This document shows, one piece after another, positions 3,157-32,081 of a DNA stretch of 64,000 nucleotides. Both the position numbers and the translations under genes were made by a program. Within the stretch, counting starts at the first letter, position 1, and each line of letters begins with the position of its first letter. Below the pieces are notes generated by a model, which did not search any database, had not been told where the DNA came from, and worked only from the letters and a program-made list of their open reading frames with translations. The DNA is from an uncultured Thermoplasmata archaeon (GTDB taxonomy: Archaea; Thermoplasmatota; Thermoplasmata; RBG-16-68-12), in contig CAVYJM010000011.1 of NCBI GenBank assembly GCA_963768855.1, forward strand, positions 256,001-320,000, written 5' to 3'.

Positions 3157-5070
3157 TCATGCGAGGTGCGTTTCGAACCAGCGCAGGTAGGCTTTGAGCC
3201 GCGCGATTCGGTGTTTCGGCTTCCCCGCACGGGAGAGGTCGTGGTTCTCCTTAGGGAACAGGACCATCTCCGCCTCCTTGCCGTAGTACTTCAGGGCGGT
3301 GAAGAACTGGACCGCCTCGACGTGCCAGCAGCGGTAGTCCTCGAAGGAATGCACGAGGAGGACGGGCGTCGTCACGTTCTTGACATACCGCAGCGGGGAC
3401 TTCGCGTTCGTCGCCGCCTCGTCGTCCCACGGGTCGGTGCCGATCTGGTCGCGGGTGAAGTGGGGGCCGATGTCGCTCGTGCCCCAGAACGTCCACCAGC
3501 TCGAGATGGACCGATCCGTGACGGCGGCTCGGAAGCGGTCCGTCTGCGTCACGACCCAGTTCGTCATGAACCCGCCGTACGAGCCGCCCGCGACCGCGAG
3601 CCTCGACCCGTCCACGAAGGGATAGTGCGCGATCGCATGGTCGACTGCCTCCATGAGGTCCTGGTAGTCCCGCTCCCCGTAGCGCTTGCGAATGTCCGCG
3701 AACCCTTCCGTGTATCCGTCGCTGCCGCGGGGGTTCGTGTAGAGGACCGCGTACCCCTTGGCCGCGAACACCTGGAACTCGTGGAGGTACGTGTACCCGA
3801 AGGCGGTTTTGGGCCCGCCGTGGACGTACAGGATCGTCGGGAGCTTGCCTTCCTTCCGCGGCTTGAGGATCCATCCCTCGACGGTCACCCCGTCGCTCGC
3901 CTGGAACGTGAATCGCTCGGGCGCCAGGAGCTCGAGATCCGTCCCGGCCTTCTCGTTGAACGCGGTGAGCGTCCTCACCTTTCCGTCGAACGCATACAGC
4001 TCCGGGAGCCGCACGCGCTCCATCGCGGTGAAGACCACCGTCCCGCCGTGGACCTGGAAGGACTCCACGCTCCGCTCTCCTCCGAGGACGACCTCTGAAT
4101 GGCGGTCCGAGGGGCGGATCGCCTGCAGGTGGACCGCGCCGCCCTCGGCCACCGCGAAGTAGATGCGGTCGCCGACCCACTTCGGCTCCGTGTTCATGCC
4201 GCCCATGCGAACGTCGCAGTTCAGCCCGTTGCTCACGTTCCGGTCCAGCTGGTCGAGACGCTCGGGGGTCCCGCCGGCCGCGTCGATCCACCACACGTGC
4301 TCGTGGGACGCGAATCCATGCGGGAGGTCGTCGCCCGTGAAGGCGAGCTTCCGGTCGTCGGGCGACCAAGCGACGCCGCCGATCTCCATCGTGTGCTTCG
4401 TGAGCTGCTTCGCGACGCCCGTGGCCACGTCGAAGACGAACAGGTCTTGGAGGTAGGGGCGCAGGTTCTCCGTCGAGGCCGTGTAGGCGATCCGCCCACC
4501 GTCGCGGGACCAGTAGGCATGGATCACGTCGAACTCGCCCTGGGTCAGCTGCTTCATCTCGTTCGTCGCGAGGTCGAGGACGAAGACGTGCTTCCGCAGG
4601 TTGTAGATGAAGCCCTTGTCGTTGAACCAGAAGTTGATCCGGCGGATCGTCCGGACGTCCTCGTCGTCCGTCCCGACGTTCGACAGGAATAGGACACGCC
4701 TCCCGTCGGGGGACCAGGCGGGCGCCTCGATCCCCTCCTTGCGGCGGAGGAGGAGCTTCGCCTCGCCGCCGTCGACCGGGATCGCGTAGAGCCCGTTCCC
4801 CTTGTCGTCCTTCCCCATCTCCCGCCGCGAAGTGAACAGGATCCGCTTCCCGTCGGGCGAGAACCGGGGTCCCGAGTCCTTGCCCGCGGTCGTGAGCTGC
4901 CGCGGCGAGCCGCCCTTCAGGGGGACGAGCCAGAGGTTGCCTTCGTACTCGTCCTTCTCCAGGAGGGCGTGGTGCACCGAGATCGCGGCGAGCGTGCCGT
5001 CCGGGGAGAGGCTGGGCTCGGAGAGCATCGCGTACGCGGTGAGGTCTTCGGGTTCGATGGGGCGGGGCAT
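3157..5070 (-). CDS. S9 family peptidase (acylaminoacyl/dipeptidyl peptidase-like)
   Basis: Beta-propeller repeats (SPDG), nucleophile motif GGSYGG, catalytic Asp/His region (EDYRC, ENHDL). Confidence 0.93.
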   Translation of the reverse strand: MPRPIEPEDLTAYAMLSEPSLSPDGTLAAISVHHALLEKDEYEGNLWLVPLKGGSPRQLTTAGKDSGPRFSPDGKRILFTSRREMGKDDKGNGLYAIPVDGGEAKLLLRRKEGIEAPAWSPDGRRVLFLSNVGTDDEDVRTIRRINFWFNDKGFIYNLRKHVFVLDLATNEMKQLTQGEFDVIHAYWSRDGGRIAYTASTENLRPYLQDLFVFDVATGVAKQLTKHTMEIGGVAWSPDDRKLAFTGDDLPHGFASHEHVWWIDAAGGTPERLDQLDRNVSNGLNCDVRMGGMNTEPKWVGDRIYFAVAEGGAVHLQAIRPSDRHSEVVLGGERSVESFQVHGGTVVFTAMERVRLPELYAFDGKVRTLTAFNEKAGTDLELLAPERFTFQASDGVTVEGWILKPRKEGKLPTILYVHGGPKTAFGYTYLHEFQVFAAKGYAVLYTNPRGSDGYTEGFADIRKRYGERDYQDLMEAVDHAIAHYPFVDGSRLAVAGGSYGGFMTNWVVTQTDRFRAAVTDRSISSWWTFWGTSDIGPHFTRDQIGTDPWDDEAATNAKSPLRYVKNVTTPVLLVHSFEDYRCWHVEAVQFFTALKYYGKEAEMVLFPKENHDLSRAGKPKHRIARLKAYLRWFETHLA

Positions 5071-11668: not shown

Positions 11669-11677
11669 GTACTTACA
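11669..11677 (+). repeat. Left copy of direct repeat GTACTTACA (probable TSD, element 1)
   Basis: Identical to 13038-13046. In the end register of element 2 it reads (C/G)GTACTTAC at 11668-11676 and 13037-13045. Confidence 0.7.
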
Positions 11678-13036
11678 GTTGAGTGAACACTTGTAGGGGG
11701 GATTACCACTTTCGCTCTACTCCCTTCGCATCATTCAAGGCTTTGAGAGCTCAGAGGACATCTGTGGCCACGAAATGCATGGTCCGTAGCATTTCCTTCC
11801 CGGCCGGGTCGTTGCCGCCATCCCTCCTCCACCTCCTCGCCGAGTTCCGCCTCATCGTCAACAAGTCCATTCGCATCGCGCTGCGCGAGGACATCCGCTC
11901 TCGATTTCGGCTCGCCCGTTCGGCCTATGCGGCTCTGGCCGCCGAGCATGATGTGTACAAGCAGTACATCCCGAGCGCCTTCGGGGTAGCCCTCGGACTC
12001 CTGAAGGCGTACCGGAGGCGGGTGCGGAAAGGCAAGAAGGCGAACGTCCCGTATGTCCGCCGTCTGATGCTTAGTGCCGAGAACCAATCCTATCGGCTCG
12101 ATCGGACAACCGGGAAGCTGCGTATCCCCATCCGTCGTGGAGAACACGTCTACCTAGACTTGCCAGTCTGCGATTGGCATCTCACCTTCCTATCAGATCC
12201 CAGCTGGAGTCTCGGCTCCCTGACGGTCACCCCCGAGCGAATCATCGTGTTCGTCCGAAGGCACCCTCTCAAACCCTACGAGCCAACTTCCGCCCTCGCG
12301 TTCGACACGAACGAGGACTCCCTCGACGGCGTGCTGGTCGCGGGATCTGTAGCTCAACTCGTCAGTCTCCCTTTGGGCGGCGTTCGACAAGTGCAGACGA
12401 CGCACTTCCGTCGACGCCGACGCCTGGCAAAGAAGAAGGCTTGCGATCGACGAGTGAAGCGGCAGTTGCTCGGCCGTGAAGGGAAGCGGGAACGGAACCG
12501 TGTGAAGCAGCGACTCCACCGGATCAGCAAGGTTCTCGTGGCTAGAGCCAAGCAATGCAAAGCCGCCGTTGTCCTTGAGGATCTCACCCTTTCGGGTGCA
12601 CGCGGCCGTTCCCGCCGCATGAACCGCCGCCTGTCGTCCTGGCCCCGCGGCGAACTCCATCGTCAGATCGAGTACAAGGCCGCCCTCGCGGGCGTGCCGA
12701 TCATCAAGGTCAACCCCGCATGGACCAGCAAGACCTGCCCAGTGTGTGGCGCCCGGCGCCGAGATAGGGTGGGCCCGGATTTCGTGTGCGAGATGTGCGA
12801 CTGGGAGATGGACCGGCAGCACAACGCAGGCCTGAACATCCTGAAATCCGCCTTGGCCTCGAACGAGGCCTTGGCACGGGCTGTACGGTTCCAGCCCGGT
12901 GCCCTCCGCGATGATGTGGTGAGTCCCCTCTACGACCTGCCAGCGTTGCTGGCAGGTGCACGGGAGGAGCCGAGCGGAGTGGAGTGCGTTGCAGAGGTGG
13001 GGCCGTGAAGCCATCGTCCTCGCTACTCGCAGAACC
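11677..13036 (+). mobile_element. Non-autonomous TnpB-only element 1 (TIR/TSD type, degenerate left end)
   Basis: Single tnpB gene. Right end ...GCAGAACC matches the element 2 end ...ACAGAACC. Flanked by an 8-9-bp direct repeat; left end AGTTGAGT matches the TIR only partly. Confidence 0.75.
11764..13008 (+). CDS. tnpB: TnpB-family RNA-guided RuvC protein, RuvC-III Asp replaced by Gln
   Basis: RuvC-I AFDTNE, RuvC-II VLEDL, WPRGELHRQIEYKA, Zn ribbon CPVC/CEMC, MDRQHNAGLNI. GTG start chosen by alignment with copy 2. Confidence 0.93.
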   Translation: MATKCMVRSISFPAGSLPPSLLHLLAEFRLIVNKSIRIALREDIRSRFRLARSAYAALAAEHDVYKQYIPSAFGVALGLLKAYRRRVRKGKKANVPYVRRLMLSAENQSYRLDRTTGKLRIPIRRGEHVYLDLPVCDWHLTFLSDPSWSLGSLTVTPERIIVFVRRHPLKPYEPTSALAFDTNEDSLDGVLVAGSVAQLVSLPLGGVRQVQTTHFRRRRRLAKKKACDRRVKRQLLGREGKRERNRVKQRLHRISKVLVARAKQCKAAVVLEDLTLSGARGRSRRMNRRLSSWPRGELHRQIEYKAALAGVPIIKVNPAWTSKTCPVCGARRRDRVGPDFVCEMCDWEMDRQHNAGLNILKSALASNEALARAVRFQPGALRDDVVSPLYDLPALLAGAREEPSGVECVAEVGP

Positions 13037-13037
13037 G

Positions 13038-13046
13038 GTACTTACA
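13038..13046 (+). repeat. Right copy of direct repeat GTACTTACA (probable TSD, element 1)
   Basis: Identical to 11669-11677. Confidence 0.7.
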
Positions 13047-29073: not shown

Positions 29074-30639
29074 CTACGCCTCGTACAGGGAGTGGCTTTG
29101 CTCGTGCATGAACTGCGGGAGGTAGAAGTATCCGCCCGCGGCCTTGCCCGAGATCCCGGACATCTTCCAGCCACCGAAGGGCTGGACCCCGACCACTGCG
29201 CCCGTCGTCGATCCGGCGGCGCGGTTCGCGTACATGACGCCGGCCGCGCACTCCCGGAAGAAGCGGTCGACCTCCGCGGGGTTCTTGGAGAAGATCCCTG
29301 CGGTCAGCCCGTAGTCCGTCGAGTTCGCGAGGTCCATCGCATCGTCCAGGCCGCTGACCTCGATGATGGACAGGATCGGGACGAACAGCTCCTCGTTGTT
29401 CACGCGGTGCTTCCTCGGGAGGCCGTCCACGATCGTGGGCTTGACGAAGAGGCCGTCTCCCTTCAGGACCTCGCCGCCGGTCAGGATCTTTCCCCGCCCC
29501 TTCTTCACATCGGCGATCGCCTTCGCGTAGGTCTTCACCGCCGCCTCGTTGATCACGGGACCGAGGTACACGTCCCGCTGGGTGGGGTCTCCCATCTTGA
29601 TCTTCTCCGTCTCCGCGACGAGCTTCTCGACGAAGGCCTTCTTGACGCGCTTGTCGACGAGCACGCGCGAGCAGGCGGAGCACTTCTGTCCGCCGAAGCC
29701 GAACGCGGCGCGCATGGCGCCCAGGGCCGCCTTCTCGAGGTCCGCGTTCTCCGTGACGATCGTCGGGTTCTTCCCGCCCAGCTCCGTGATGATCGGCTTG
29801 GGGAACGTCTCGCTGAACGTGCGGTACGCGCCGAGCCCGACGTCGCGGGATCCCGTGAAGACGAACCCGGCGACATCCGTGTTGTCGACGAGCTCCTGGC
29901 CGACCGTCGACCCGGGGCCCGTGACGTAGTTGAAGACTCCCTTGGGCACGCCGGCCTCGCGGAAGATCAGGCAGAGCTCCCACCCCATGTAGGGCGTGTC
30001 GCTCGCCGGCTTGAACACGGCCGTGTTGCCCGTGATCATCGCGCCCGCGGACATGCCGCCCGCGATCGCGAACGGGAAGTTGAACGGGGCGACGACCGCC
30101 CAGACGCCGTAGGGCTTGAGCAGGTCCCGCGTCTTCTCCCCGGGCACGTACTGCCCCATGGCGAAGTCGTAGCCGTGGTTCCGCTCCATCTCCTCCGCAT
30201 ACCAGCGGATCAGGTCCGCCGTCTCGTCCACGTCGGCCATGGACTCGTAGCGGTTCTTCCCGTTCTCGAAGGACATCAGGGCGGCGTAGTAGAATTTCTT
30301 CGCGCTGACGAGGTCCGCGGCGCGGCGGAAGATCCGGACGCGCTCCTCCCAGCCCGTGGCGGACCATGCGGGGAACGCCTTCTTCGCGGCTTCGACGGCC
30401 CGCTTCGCGTGGGCCTTCGTCCCCTTTTGGAACGTGCCGAGCACGAGCTTGCGGTTTGAGGGCGAGGTGTCCGTGAAGCTCTCCCGAGTCCAGATCTCCT
30501 TGCCGTCGATGAACAGCGGGTGCTTCGCACCCAGGTCCATCCGGACCTGCTCGACCGCGGCCTCGTAGGCCTGATGGAACTCGTCCGTCTTCCCTGCCTC
30601 GACCGCATTCTGCCACGTGCGCTCGTTCTTGAAAACCAT
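29074..30639 (-). CDS. Aldehyde dehydrogenase (delta-1-pyrroline-5-carboxylate dehydrogenase-like)
   Basis: PFNFP, KPAS, FTGS, ELGGKN, GQKCSACSR, EELFVP, QPFGG.K.SG. Confidence 0.92.
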   Translation of the reverse strand: MVFKNERTWQNAVEAGKTDEFHQAYEAAVEQVRMDLGAKHPLFIDGKEIWTRESFTDTSPSNRKLVLGTFQKGTKAHAKRAVEAAKKAFPAWSATGWEERVRIFRRAADLVSAKKFYYAALMSFENGKNRYESMADVDETADLIRWYAEEMERNHGYDFAMGQYVPGEKTRDLLKPYGVWAVVAPFNFPFAIAGGMSAGAMITGNTAVFKPASDTPYMGWELCLIFREAGVPKGVFNYVTGPGSTVGQELVDNTDVAGFVFTGSRDVGLGAYRTFSETFPKPIITELGGKNPTIVTENADLEKAALGAMRAAFGFGGQKCSACSRVLVDKRVKKAFVEKLVAETEKIKMGDPTQRDVYLGPVINEAAVKTYAKAIADVKKGRGKILTGGEVLKGDGLFVKPTIVDGLPRKHRVNNEELFVPILSIIEVSGLDDAMDLANSTDYGLTAGIFSKNPAEVDRFFRECAAGVMYANRAAGSTTGAVVGVQPFGGWKMSGISGKAAGGYFYLPQFMHEQSHSLYEA

Positions 30640-30690
30640 GGATCCTCACCCGCTGGCCGACGGATGTCCCAGCCCGGAAAATAAGGTTTC

Positions 30691-30699
30691 GGAATGTAC
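30691..30699 (+). repeat. Target-site duplication, left copy (GGAATGTAC)
   Basis: Identical to 32073-32081 and abuts the TIR. Confidence 0.9.
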
Positions 30700-30709
30700 G
30701 GTTCTGTCC
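30700..30709 (+). repeat. Left terminal inverted repeat GGTTCTGTCC
   Basis: Exact reverse complement of 32063-32072. Confidence 0.9.
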
Positions 30710-30812
30710 GAAGTCGGATGACGAACCGCTTCCCGCGCTCAGCTCCAGGGATTTTCACTTTCACCCCACTCCCATGAGAACTTCCAGCCTATGGACGCCA
30801 TTCGAGTTCCCG

Positions 30813-32060
30813 ATGGGCGTCTCACGCGTCGTCCGCAGCCTCTCGTTCACTGTCGACGAGTTGCCCGCACCCCTCCGCTGGCTGCTCAGCGAGTTCCGGC
30901 TCGTCGTCAACAAATCCATCCGCATCGCGCTCCGCGACGATCTTCGCTCCCGCTTCCGGCTGTCGAAGGCGGCGTACGCAGGCTTGTCGGCGGAGCACGA
31001 CTTGTACAAGCAGTACATCTCGAGTGCCTTCGAGGTCGCCCTCGGCGTCCTGAAGAACCACCGGAGACGAATGAGACAGAAGAGGAAATCCAACATACCA
31101 TACCTCCGCCGGCTCTTGCTCAAGGCGGAGAACCAGTCGTACCGGCTCGACCGGACGACGGGAAAACTTCGCATTCCAATCCGGCGCGGTGAGCACGTCG
31201 AGATCGACCTGCCAATCTCCCGCTGGCACCGCTCAATCCTGTCGGACCCCGCCTGGGGCCTCGGCTCGCTCACCGTGATTCCAGGGAAAATCATCGTCGT
31301 CGTTCGGAAACAGGCACCCAAAGCCTACGAGCCGGTCTCTGCCGTCGCTCTTGACACGAATGAGGACTCTCTTGACGGCGTGATGGCCGCGCGTGGCGTC
31401 GCACAGCTGGTCACCATCCCCCTCGGTGGCGTCCGCCAGGTGCAGGCGACCCACTTCCGCCGCCGGAGGTACCTCGCGTCGAAGAAGACCCATGACCGGC
31501 GGGTCGCCCGTCGTCTCCTCGGCCGCGAGGGCCGCAGGGAGCGGAATCGGGTGCGCCAGCGACTCCACCGGGTTTCGAAGACCCTAATCGCCTCGGCGAA
31601 GGGCCAGAAGGCCGCCCTCGTCCTCGAGGACCTCACCCTGCATGGTGCAGGCAGCCGTTCATGTCGAACGAACCGCCGCCTGTCGTCCTGGCCCCGCGGC
31701 GAGCTCCACCGTCAGATCGAGTACAAGGCCGCCCTCGCGGGCGTGCCGATCATCAAGGTCAATCCTGCCTGGACGAGCAAGACCTGCCCAGTGTGTGGCG
31801 CCCGGCGCCGAGATAGGGTGGGCCCGGACTTCGTCTGCGAGATGTGCGACTGGGAAATGGACCGGCAGCACAACGCAGGGCTGAACATCCTGAAATCCGC
31901 CTTGACCTCGAACGAGGCCTTGGCAAGGGCTGTACGGTTCCAGCCCGGTGCCCTCCGCCATGATGTGGTGAGTCCCCTCTGCAATCTGCCAGCGTTGCTG
32001 GCAGGTGCACGGGAGGAGCCGAGCGGAGCCGAGTCCCGATGGGCGGCAATCACCCGATGA
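30813..32060 (+). CDS. tnpB: TnpB-family RNA-guided RuvC protein, RuvC-III Asp replaced by Gln
   Basis: ALDTNE, VLEDL, CPVC/CEMC, MDRQHNAGLNI; clear paralog of 11764..13008. Confidence 0.93.
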   Translation: MGVSRVVRSLSFTVDELPAPLRWLLSEFRLVVNKSIRIALRDDLRSRFRLSKAAYAGLSAEHDLYKQYISSAFEVALGVLKNHRRRMRQKRKSNIPYLRRLLLKAENQSYRLDRTTGKLRIPIRRGEHVEIDLPISRWHRSILSDPAWGLGSLTVIPGKIIVVVRKQAPKAYEPVSAVALDTNEDSLDGVMAARGVAQLVTIPLGGVRQVQATHFRRRRYLASKKTHDRRVARRLLGREGRRERNRVRQRLHRVSKTLIASAKGQKAALVLEDLTLHGAGSRSCRTNRRLSSWPRGELHRQIEYKAALAGVPIIKVNPAWTSKTCPVCGARRRDRVGPDFVCEMCDWEMDRQHNAGLNILKSALTSNEALARAVRFQPGALRHDVVSPLCNLPALLAGAREEPSGAESRWAAITR

Positions 32061-32062
32061 TG

Positions 32063-32072
32063 GGACAGAACC
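32063..32072 (-). repeat. Right terminal inverted repeat GGACAGAACC
   Basis: Exact reverse complement of 30700-30709. Confidence 0.9.
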
Positions 32073-32081
32073 GGAATGTAC
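32073..32081 (+). repeat. Target-site duplication, right copy (GGAATGTAC)
   Basis: Identical to 30691-30699. Confidence 0.9.

What the first reader, a model, noticed from the sequence alone, without database searches (positions are those of the whole stretch)
30691..32081. TnpB carried by a TIR-bounded, TSD-generating element: candidate new TnpB-DDE transposon system
Seen: GGAATGTAC | GGTTCTGTCC ... tnpB ... GGACAGAACC | GGAATGTAC, a perfect 10-bp TIR directly inside a perfect 9-bp duplication, with a weaker extension (TCGGATG/TCGGGTG) further in. No transposase is inside the element or in the window. Known: tnpB normally rides IS200/IS605 (HUH Y1) or IS607 (serine recombinase) elements, which have neither TIRs nor TSDs. 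GGnnnTG ends with 8-9-bp TSDs are typical of DDE families such as IS1, IS6 and IS1595. Inferred: a non-autonomous element mobilised in trans by a DDE transposase has captured a nuclease-impaired TnpB, a prokaryotic parallel to Fanzor capture by TIR transposons and a possible step towards RNA-guided transposition. I cannot verify whether this family is already catalogued.
Basis: partly seen in the sequence, partly recalled or inferred. Interest (0 to 1): 0.92.

Follow-up and report, generated by a model that had tools for sequence, protein, structure and literature searches.

The report
TnpB riding an IS6-like transposon
This TnpB gene sits in a 1.37-kb transposon that cannot move itself and has the inverted ends and 9-bp target duplication of an IS6-like DDE transposon family of Thermoplasmata archaea, a real but only moderately new case because TnpB-DDE pairings were already surveyed in 2023.

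Summary
GGAATGTAC flanks the element on both sides and GGTTCTGTCC / GGACAGAACC form its tips. The closest relative genome has the uninterrupted site with a single GGAATGTAC.

This holds for the whole family. Sixteen TnpB elements from Thermoplasmata MAGs show 8-10-bp duplications and an imperfect inverted repeat of about 25 bp (GGTTCTGT..TCGGGTGA). The same ends and 9-bp duplications bound elements without TnpB: a 680-bp MITE-like one and others carrying TerC or DUF1801 genes. Several of these keep the C-terminal stump of an IS6-like transposase. One metagenomic contig (L157) holds an autonomous copy with a 393-aa SWIM/DDE_Tnp_IS240 transposase, a restriction-modification cargo and a perfect 9-bp duplication.

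The partner family is now identified as IS6-like. This genome has no such transposase, no Y1 TnpA and no IS607-type recombinase.

Insertions lie at the upstream edge of host BRE/TATA promoters, in TnpB-less members too. Whether TnpB reads that motif as a TAM is untested.

RuvC-III reads DRQxN in at least 115 of 120 family members, so the site is altered but not shown to be dead.

The kind is known (Altae-Tran 2023). First-reader notes on this genome had already flagged the other copies.

The parts
30678..30690 (-). Host BRE/TATA-type promoter motif of the aldehyde dehydrogenase gene (ATG at 30639, minus strand). It is also the target motif of the transposon family. Plus strand reads AAAATAAGGTTTC.
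   Evidence: It is conserved in the empty sites of 5 relatives while the rest of the spacer varies. Its reverse complement matches the RAAAsCCTTAAA-type consensus seen 30-45 nt upstream of this genome's tRNA genes. The same motif abuts the left duplication in 16 of 16 TnpB elements.
30691..30699 (.). Left copy of the 9-bp target site duplication, GGAATGTAC.
   Evidence: It is present once in the empty sites of G009 and G014.
30700..30721 (+). Left terminal inverted repeat: GGTTCTGTCC, 4 nt, then TCGGATGA.
   Evidence: It is homologous to the left ends of other TnpB elements and of TnpB-less and autonomous elements, for example L157, L122 and L153.
30774..32060 (+). tnpB ORF of 428 aa. The gene call in the protein collection starts at 30813 and gives 415 aa. 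RuvC-I is ALDTNE, RuvC-II is LVLEDL, the zinc finger is intact, and RuvC-III is MDRQHNAG with Gln at the canonical Asp.
   Evidence: The alignments to solved TnpB/Cas12f chains place the Gln opposite the catalytic Asp of NADxN.
31690..32035 (+). Highly conserved 3' block: the C-terminal coding region plus a putative omegaRNA scaffold. It includes a covarying hairpin at 31986-32004 and an almost invariant stretch at 32007-32035.
   Evidence: Identity is 95-96% among the four copies of this genome and 84-92% to other genomes, against 60-70% in the 5' part. The hairpin has 5 pairs changed on both sides in 7-14 of 28 sequences, plus one more in a single sequence.
32033..32066 (+). Terminal stem-loop (GUCCC...GGGAC) closing 6 nt before the element end. 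Its 3' arm is part of the right inverted repeat.
   Evidence: In 8 of the 10 copies folded, a hairpin closes 6 nt before the element end, with different sequences, for example GUCGC/GUGAC and GUAA/UUAC. Single-sequence z-scores are modest.
32051..32072 (+). Right terminal inverted repeat, ..CACCCGATGATGGGACAGAACC. The family-wide terminus is ACAGAACC.
   Evidence: 38 distinct right ends.
32073..32081 (.). Right copy of the 9-bp target site duplication, GGAATGTAC. If the omegaRNA reads out of the right end, this is the first 9 nt of the guide.
   Evidence: The guide role is inferred, not tested.
11669..13046 (+). Second element of the same family in the window. The duplication GTACTTACA lies at 11669-11677 and 13038-13046, the element at 11678-13037, and tnpB at 11764-13008. 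The left end is degenerate.
   Evidence: The empty site in G013 has one GTACATACA.

Best explanation
The 1373-bp element at 30700-32072 is a non-autonomous derivative of an IS6-like transposon family of Thermoplasmata archaea. The family's transposase has SWIM and zinc-finger domains and a DDE_Tnp_IS240 catalytic domain. In this element the transposase gene has been replaced by a tnpB gene with its 3' structured RNA.

Shown:
- It has the family's inverted ends of about 22-25 bp.
- It was inserted with a 9-bp staggered-cut duplication into a site that is intact in relatives.
- The same ends and duplication bound autonomous, cargo-carrying and MITE-like relatives.
- Insertion sites lie directly upstream of a host BRE/TATA promoter, with the left end next to the BRE.

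Inferred:
- It moves only when a family transposase is supplied in trans. None is in this assembly, so the four copies here are probably stranded now.
- The RNA transcribed through the right end would carry the duplication plus the right flank as guide. The uninterrupted site (promoter motif, then 9-mer, then flank) would then be its perfect target, as in IS605 homing.
- Whether this TnpB cuts, given RuvC-III DRQxN, or only binds is open.
For: - Empty sites hold one copy of the duplicated 9-mer for three of the four copies in this genome.
- Sixteen TnpB elements show 8-10-bp duplications and inverted ends.
- The inverted-repeat pattern gave 42 hits against 0 for the control.
- TnpB-less elements with the same ends and 9-bp duplications are L120, L122, L103, L153 and L147.
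- Transposase C-terminal stumps run into the right inverted repeat.
- Full-length transposases are 74-80% identical to the stump.
- L157 has both inverted repeats, the perfect duplication CTGTCAGCG and a 393-aa DDE_Tnp_IS240 transposase scoring 78 bits.
- IS6-family repeats have GG tips and a cTGTt motif, and 8-bp repeats are typical (PMC7986276). Archaeal members give 8-9 bp (PMC6807381).
- This genome has no Y1 TnpA and no IS607-type recombinase.
- The 3' hairpin covaries.
Against: - No locus was found with tnpB and the transposase inside one pair of ends, and no family transposase is present in this MAG or in the representative genomes of its genus. Mobilisation in trans is therefore inferred from shared ends, not seen.
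- The left ends of some copies are truncated (L018, L036) or degenerate (L002, L004), yet the duplication abuts them.
- The duplication is mostly 9 bp, not the 8 bp typical of IS6.
- The 'caaa' motif of IS6 repeats is absent.
- MAGs assemble multicopy insertion sequences poorly, so absence of the transposase is weak evidence either way.
Confidence: 0.85

Rival explanations
1. It is an ordinary IS200/IS605 (IS1341-group) or IS607-type TnpB element whose flanking repeat and inverted tips are coincidental, or part of a Y1-type end structure.
For: TnpB normally rides such elements. The right end contains a subterminal hairpin, as IS605 ends do.
Against: The duplicated sequence differs at each of 16 insertions and is single in the empty sites. 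The ends are shared with elements encoding a DDE transposase. No Y1 TnpA or IS607-type recombinase is in the genome.
Confidence: 0.02
2. The TnpB copies are domesticated, immobile, nuclease-dead RNA-guided regulators (TldR-like). The transposon features are relics.
For: The canonical RuvC-III Asp is Gln throughout the family. ORFs are intact. No transposase is in this genome. Every copy sits beside a host promoter.
Against: Insertions are lineage-specific with perfect 9-bp duplications and are absent in the closest species. Hundreds of diverged copies sit at different loci. RuvC-I Asp and RuvC-II Glu stay conserved, which dead derivatives usually lose. A guide taken from the right flank has no TAM-adjacent full match in the occupied locus.
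Confidence: 0.08
3. TnpB itself creates the insertion: its staggered RNA-guided cut is filled in and the element is captured, producing the duplication.
For: Cas12/TnpB enzymes leave 5' overhangs of several nucleotides. The duplication lies next to a T-rich, TAM-like motif.
Against: TnpB-less elements of the same family have the same 9-bp duplication and target motif. TnpB cuts 15-21 nt from the TAM (established for ISDra2), not at positions 1-9. The defined inverted ends are typical of a transposase.
Confidence: 0.01

Closest known systems
DDE-transposase-associated TnpB branches (DDE-1 to DDE-6) and solo TnpBs mobilised in trans (Altae-Tran et al. 2023, PNAS, PMC10691335). The partners listed in the review PMC13565253 are ISL2, IS630 and IS1031.
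   Same: A TnpB with its 3' RNA module sits within about 250 bp of a transposon end, and the ends are symmetric and inverted. A solo TnpB is flanked by ends that match those of transposase-bearing relatives.
   Different: The partner here is an archaeal IS6-like (DDE_Tnp_IS240) transposase, which the text I could read does not name. The paper's supplement was not available, so I cannot exclude that this family is one of DDE-1 to DDE-5. No copy with tnpB and the transposase together was found.
IS6/IS26 family, archaeal IS6-like clades (Varani et al. 2021, PMC7986276; Harmer and Hall 2019, PMC6807381)
   Same: DDE_Tnp_IS240 catalytic domain, an E..x...K.R motif, GG tips followed by CTGT in the inverted repeats, and an 8-9-bp duplication.
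   Different: The transposase is about 390 aa with an N-terminal SWIM domain and a second zinc finger. The repeats are about 25 bp and lack the 'caaa' motif. The duplication is mostly 9 bp. Many members carry passengers (TnpB, TerC, DUF1801, a restriction-modification pair), whereas only one passenger-carrying IS6 member was listed in 2021. The target is a promoter edge.
IS200/IS605 IS1341-group TnpB-only elements
   Same: They encode a homologous TnpB, have a structured RNA overlapping the 3' end of the gene, and are non-autonomous.
   Different: Those elements have no inverted ends and no duplication, and they insert directly 3' of a 4-5-nt target that serves as the TAM. Here 9 duplicated bp lie between the candidate TAM and the left end.
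Fanzor genes inside eukaryotic TIR transposons (Bao and Jurka 2013, PMC3627910)
   Same: A TnpB-family gene is the passenger of a DDE cut-and-paste-type element with inverted ends and a duplication.
   Different: This case is prokaryotic, the element is non-autonomous, and the transposase family differs.

Membership tests
IS200/IS605 (IS1341 group) | No terminal inverted repeats and no target site duplication | tested here: not met
   Inverted ends of about 22 bp and a 9-bp duplication are present, with the duplicated 9-mer single in empty sites.
IS200/IS605 (IS1341 group) | Mobilised by a Y1 (HUH) TnpA | tested here: not met
   PF01797 gave no match in the 93.6%-complete genome, while the control genomes did match. 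The ends are shared with DDE-encoding elements.
IS607 | Serine recombinase TnpA with an N-terminal MerR-like HTH; no inverted ends or duplication | tested here: not met
   The four resolvase-domain ORFs have an N-terminal catalytic domain and none is near a tnpB.
IS6-like (archaeal IS6/IS26) transposon family | DDE_Tnp_IS240 transposase between the ends | tested here: met
   This is met in autonomous relatives, not in the window element itself. L157 scores 78 bits and L147 75 bits against a cut-off of 27. Stumps of the gene occur in L103, L120, L122 and L095.
IS6-like (archaeal IS6/IS26) transposon family | Inverted repeats with GG tips and a cTGTt motif (PMC7986276) | tested here: met
   GGTTCTGT is at both tips of the window element and in 42 pattern hits. 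The 'caaa' motif is absent.
IS6-like (archaeal IS6/IS26) transposon family | 8-bp target duplication | tested here: inconclusive
   Most elements have 9 bp. Four TnpB copies have 8 bp: L023, L025 and L031 (one subtype by their ends) and L020. Archaeal ISPfu5 is recorded with 9 bp.
IS6-like (archaeal IS6/IS26) transposon family | Replicative transposition through cointegrates | not testable with these tools
   This needs a transposition assay.
TnpB / OMEGA effector | TnpB fold with the TNB zinc-finger domain | tested here: met
   PF07282 at E 1.9e-19. Matches to solved TnpB/Cas12f chains reach E 4e-11.
TnpB / OMEGA effector | Complete RuvC D-E-D catalytic triad | tested here: not met
   RuvC-I Asp and RuvC-II Glu are present, but RuvC-III reads DRQHN with Gln aligned to the catalytic Asp. 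Relatives at 40-46% identity have Q or H there.
TnpB / OMEGA effector | Structured omegaRNA overlapping the 3' end of the gene and ending at the element boundary | tested here: met
   There is a covarying hairpin and a terminal stem conserved in shape in 8 of 10 copies folded. No Rfam family matches. Transcription was not observed.
TnpB / OMEGA effector | TAM 5' of a target that matches the flank-derived guide | tested here: inconclusive
   A T-rich motif abuts the left duplication in 16 of 16 elements, but TnpB-less elements show it too.
DDE-associated TnpB (Altae-Tran 2023) | Solo TnpB flanked by ends that match those of transposase-bearing elements | tested here: met
   The left end is homologous over about 35 nt, and the right tip is homologous to L157, L122 and L153.

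The most novel reading that the evidence does not exclude
The DRQ-type TnpB may not be a homing nuclease. It could be an RNA-guided DNA binder that works with the IS6-like transposase. It would read the BRE-side T-rich motif as a TAM and use the duplication plus the flank as its guide. It would then mark uninterrupted sites, or its own left junction through the 9-nt seed, to steer or regulate DDE transposition. That would be natural RNA-guided transposition outside CRISPR-associated transposons.
Probability: 0.08. Interest if true: 0.9.

Novelty: new member of a known kind. Interest (0 to 1): 0.55.

Why it matters
It gives a clean, abundant natural example of a TnpB/omegaRNA module living on a DDE transposon. 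Its ends, its duplication and its empty sites are known, an autonomous transposase of the family has been identified, and TnpB-less sister elements serve as built-in controls. This makes it directly testable what TnpB does for a transposon that duplicates its target, and which may not excise without a scar if it transposes as IS6 elements do.

It also shows an archaeal transposon family that inserts precisely at the upstream edge of BRE/TATA promoters and shuttles varied cargo. Finally, it adds a family-wide RuvC-III Asp-to-Gln TnpB whose activity is unknown.

Tried and rejected
- Searching this genome for the 10-mer or 8-mer tips alone found nothing beyond chance.
- Self-BLAST of the MAG found strain-level duplicate contigs but no multicopy insertion sequence.
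- IS6-like genes of the same genus found through PF13610 (L062-L066) are a different lineage, about 30% identical to the partner clade, and I could not find matching ends. L067 has a family inverted repeat next to a 5'-truncated transposase of that other lineage.
- Rfam gave no match for the 3' RNA.
- The supplement of PMC10691335 is not held, so the identities of DDE-1 to DDE-5 could not be checked.
- No paper linking TnpB with the IS6 family was found.
- No RNA holder is listed among the public runs. Contigs laid on the locus gave only a weak empty-site joint.
- L003 could not be given a clean empty site because its flank next to a tRNA gene is rearranged in relatives.
- L155/L156 carry the transposase and the right end, but I found no left end.
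- The orientation bias of the promoter motif (16 of 16 on the left for TnpB elements) does not by itself prove a TAM. Five of six TnpB-less elements also have it on the left.
- Structure prediction was not run because the tool returns no coordinates with which to judge active-site geometry.

Full report
**1. The observation**

The sequence is exactly as described.
- GGAATGTAC lies at 30691-30699 and again at 32073-32081.
- GGTTCTGTCC lies at 30700-30709 and its reverse complement at 32063-32072.
- An inner imperfect match pairs TCGGATGA with TCGGGTGA.
- Between them is one long ORF (30774-32060, 428 aa) that matches Pfam Cas12f1-like_TNB.
- The window is part of a 2.87-Mb MAG in 24 contigs, 93.6% complete and 66% G+C. 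Database names and record titles of close relatives place it in Thermoplasmata, near Methanomassiliicoccales.

**2. The duplication is real**

A DNA search of 40 relatives found the two flanks adjacent.
- In the closest genome (G009, flanks 86-89% identical) the site reads ..AAAATAAGGTTTCGGAATGTACCGCTCAGG.., with one copy of the 9-mer.
- G014 has the same 9-mer once. G013 and G023 carry variants of it, also once.
- A wetland metagenome contig joins 30689 to 32072 with 10 ambiguous letters. This is weak because only 20 letters lie on the shorter side.

The genome has three more copies, 74-77% identical at the DNA level.
- The copy at window 11678-13037 is flanked by GTACTTACA. Its empty site in G013 has one GTACATACA.
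- The copy on contig C6 is flanked by TGTAAAGCC / TGTAAAGGC, with a single copy in G009.
- The fourth copy lies by a tRNA gene in a region that is rearranged in relatives. Only a degenerate repeat remains.

**3. The pattern holds across the family**

I examined copies fetched from relatives and from public MAGs.
- The right terminus ACAGAACC is conserved in 38 distinct right ends.
- In 16 TnpB elements the 8-10 nt after that terminus recur, with at most one mismatch, at the left border.
- The ends form an imperfect inverted repeat of about 25 bp, GGTTCTGT..(5-8)..TCGGGTGAT.
- Some left ends are truncated (L018, L036) or diverged. One subtype has GGCTCCGTAAC at the left and an 8-bp duplication.
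- The pattern GGTTCTGT-N5-8-CGGGTGA occurs 42 times in 79 genomes of the order. The reversed control pattern occurs 0 times.

**4. What the ends belong to**

Inverted pairs of the pattern on one contig also bound elements without tnpB:

| Locus | Size | Duplication | Content |
|---|---|---|---|
| L122 | 680 bp | GGAGCGTCG, 9/9 | MITE-like, no intact gene |
| L120 | 941 bp | GCCCCGTCG, 9/9 | transposase stump |
| L103 | 1222 bp | 7/9 | weak DUF1801-like ORF (below Pfam cut-off) |
| L153 | 2058 bp | TCATCGAGG, 9/9 | TerC gene |

- L103, L120, L122, L095 and L104 end on the right with a remnant of the C-terminus of an IS6-like transposase. The remnant runs into the inverted repeat.
- A protein search with that remnant found full-length transposases 74-80% identical to it, all with Pfam DDE_Tnp_IS240.
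- One of them lies on a 3746-bp metagenomic contig, L157. There the left repeat at position 31 and the right repeat at 3716 are flanked by a perfect CTGTCAGCG.
- Inside L157 are a PD-(D/E)XK nuclease gene, an N6/N4 methyltransferase gene and a 393-aa transposase. The transposase has SWIM-like and zinc-finger domains and scores 78 bits for DDE_Tnp_IS240. Its stop codon lies inside the right repeat.
- L147, from another family of the class, is a 2094-bp element with a 411-aa transposase and the perfect duplication GGTCCAAGG.
- The left ends of the TnpB elements are homologous to those of these elements over about 35 nt.

The TnpB element is therefore one of several non-autonomous, cargo-carrying derivatives of one IS6-like transposon family.

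The ends fit the published IS6 signature of GG tips plus cTGTt (PMC7986276). The duplication fits the 8-9 bp of archaeal members (PMC6807381). The 'caaa' motif is lacking and the transposase is longer than usual.

**5. No partner in this genome**

- PF13610 (DDE_Tnp_IS240) has no match in this genome.
- The transposase remnant has no match either.
- Y1_Tnp has no match.
- The four resolvase-type ORFs are ordinary N-terminal-catalytic recombinases.
- Only the four tnpB copies match PF07282.

Mobilisation in trans is thus an inference from shared ends. The copies here may be stranded. MAGs also lose multicopy insertion sequences during assembly, so the absence is not strong evidence.

**6. Target choice**

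- In 16 of 16 TnpB elements the left duplication is preceded by ..TTAAGGnTTn. T occupies positions -3 and -2 in all 16, and A occupies -7 in 15.
- The reverse complement of this motif is the BRE/TATA-type consensus seen 30-45 nt upstream of this genome's tRNA genes.
- In the window the motif is the conserved promoter of the aldehyde dehydrogenase gene.
- TnpB-less members show the same motif: on the left only in 3, on the right only in 1, and on both sides in 2.

The preference therefore belongs to the transposon family, not to TnpB. The geometry (motif, 9-mer, flank) is what a TnpB with a guide read out of the right end would need as TAM plus target in an uninterrupted site. That remains a hypothesis.

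**7. The TnpB and its RNA**

- RuvC-I Asp and RuvC-II Glu are present.
- RuvC-III reads DRQHN. The Gln aligns with the catalytic Asp of solved relatives.
- DRQxN is found in at least 115 of 120 family members.
- Representatives at 40-46% identity have Q or H at that position. Those at about 30-36% have DRDxN.
- This matches the 'rearranged RuvC-III' branches of PMC10691335. It does not show that the enzyme is dead.
- The last 350 nt or so are far more conserved than the rest: 84-92% between genomes and 95-96% within this genome, against 60-70%.
- A hairpin at 31986-32004 has 5 pairs with compensatory changes in many sequences, plus one more in a single sequence.
- In 8 of the 10 copies folded, a terminal stem closes 6 nt before the end, using different sequences.
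- No Rfam family matches.

**8. Comparison with what is known**

PMC10691335 reported six DDE-associated TnpB branches with inverted terminal repeats, and solo TnpBs mobilised in trans. A 2026 review lists ISL2, IS630 and IS1031 as the partner families. An IS6-like partner is not named in the text available to me, and the paper's supplement was not held. I therefore file this as a new member of a known kind.

It is not a member of IS200/IS605 or IS607, because their defining lack of inverted ends and of a duplication is contradicted here.

**9. Verdict**

- It is overstated on novelty, and unproven on nuclease loss and on RNA-guided transposition.
- First-reader notes on the same genome had independently flagged the other copies, the Gln, the mosaic 3' end and the TAM-like motif. 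My tests agree with them, except for the reading of these genes as domesticated repressors.

Noticed in passing
window 11669-13046: A second TnpB element of the same family lies in the window. Its duplication is GTACTTACA and its left end is degenerate. Its empty site is present in G013.
   Followed up: yes
window 30678-30690; left flanks of L004, L025, L035, L079, L081, L105, L122, L157 and others: The IS6-like family inserts exactly at the upstream edge of host BRE/TATA promoters. In L157 both flanks carry the motif, as a near-palindrome around the 9-bp duplication. I do not know of promoter-edge targeting by an archaeal DDE transposon.
   Followed up: partly
L153:517-2574, L103:1501-2722, L157:31-3716, L120:1501-2441: The same transposon ends carry varied passengers: a TerC membrane protein, a weak DUF1801-like protein (below the Pfam cut-off), a PD-(D/E)XK nuclease with an N6/N4 methyltransferase, and an 89-aa ORF. 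IS6-family elements with passengers were considered rare.
   Followed up: partly
L126:1468-1520 and L143:1688-1740: Two element ends abut tip to tip with exactly 9 bp between them. This could be adjacent insertions sharing one duplication, or a junction of the kind seen in tandem or circular forms.
   Followed up: no
L128, L129, L131, L137 (four genomes of another genus of the class): A transposase of the partner clade, 50-60% identical to that of L157 and with a long N-terminal extension, sits directly upstream of ftsZ in four genomes. No recognisable inverted repeats flank it. This may be an old shared insertion or a domesticated gene.
   Followed up: no
window 31690-32035 against the other three copies (L002, L003, L004): The 3' 350 nt are 95-96% identical among the four copies of this genome but 84-92% identical to other genomes. 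This hints at within-genome homogenisation on top of the family-wide constraint.
   Followed up: partly
L159:1447-1462 and 2720-2737: A TnpB lineage 41% identical to this one (RuvC-III reads DKQ) is flanked by a different inverted repeat of 15-16 nt, TTTGTACTTAAATAG. The contig ends there, so no duplication could be checked.
   Followed up: no
G000 contigs C1, C3, C5, C19, C20, C22-C24 against C6, C15, C21: Several small contigs duplicate parts of large ones at 88-99% identity. This points to strain heterogeneity in the MAG (7.7% contamination) rather than to repeats.
   Followed up: no
G000:C6:144028-145657: Two resolvase/invertase-type serine recombinase genes lie close together. They are unrelated to the TnpB elements.
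   Followed up: partly
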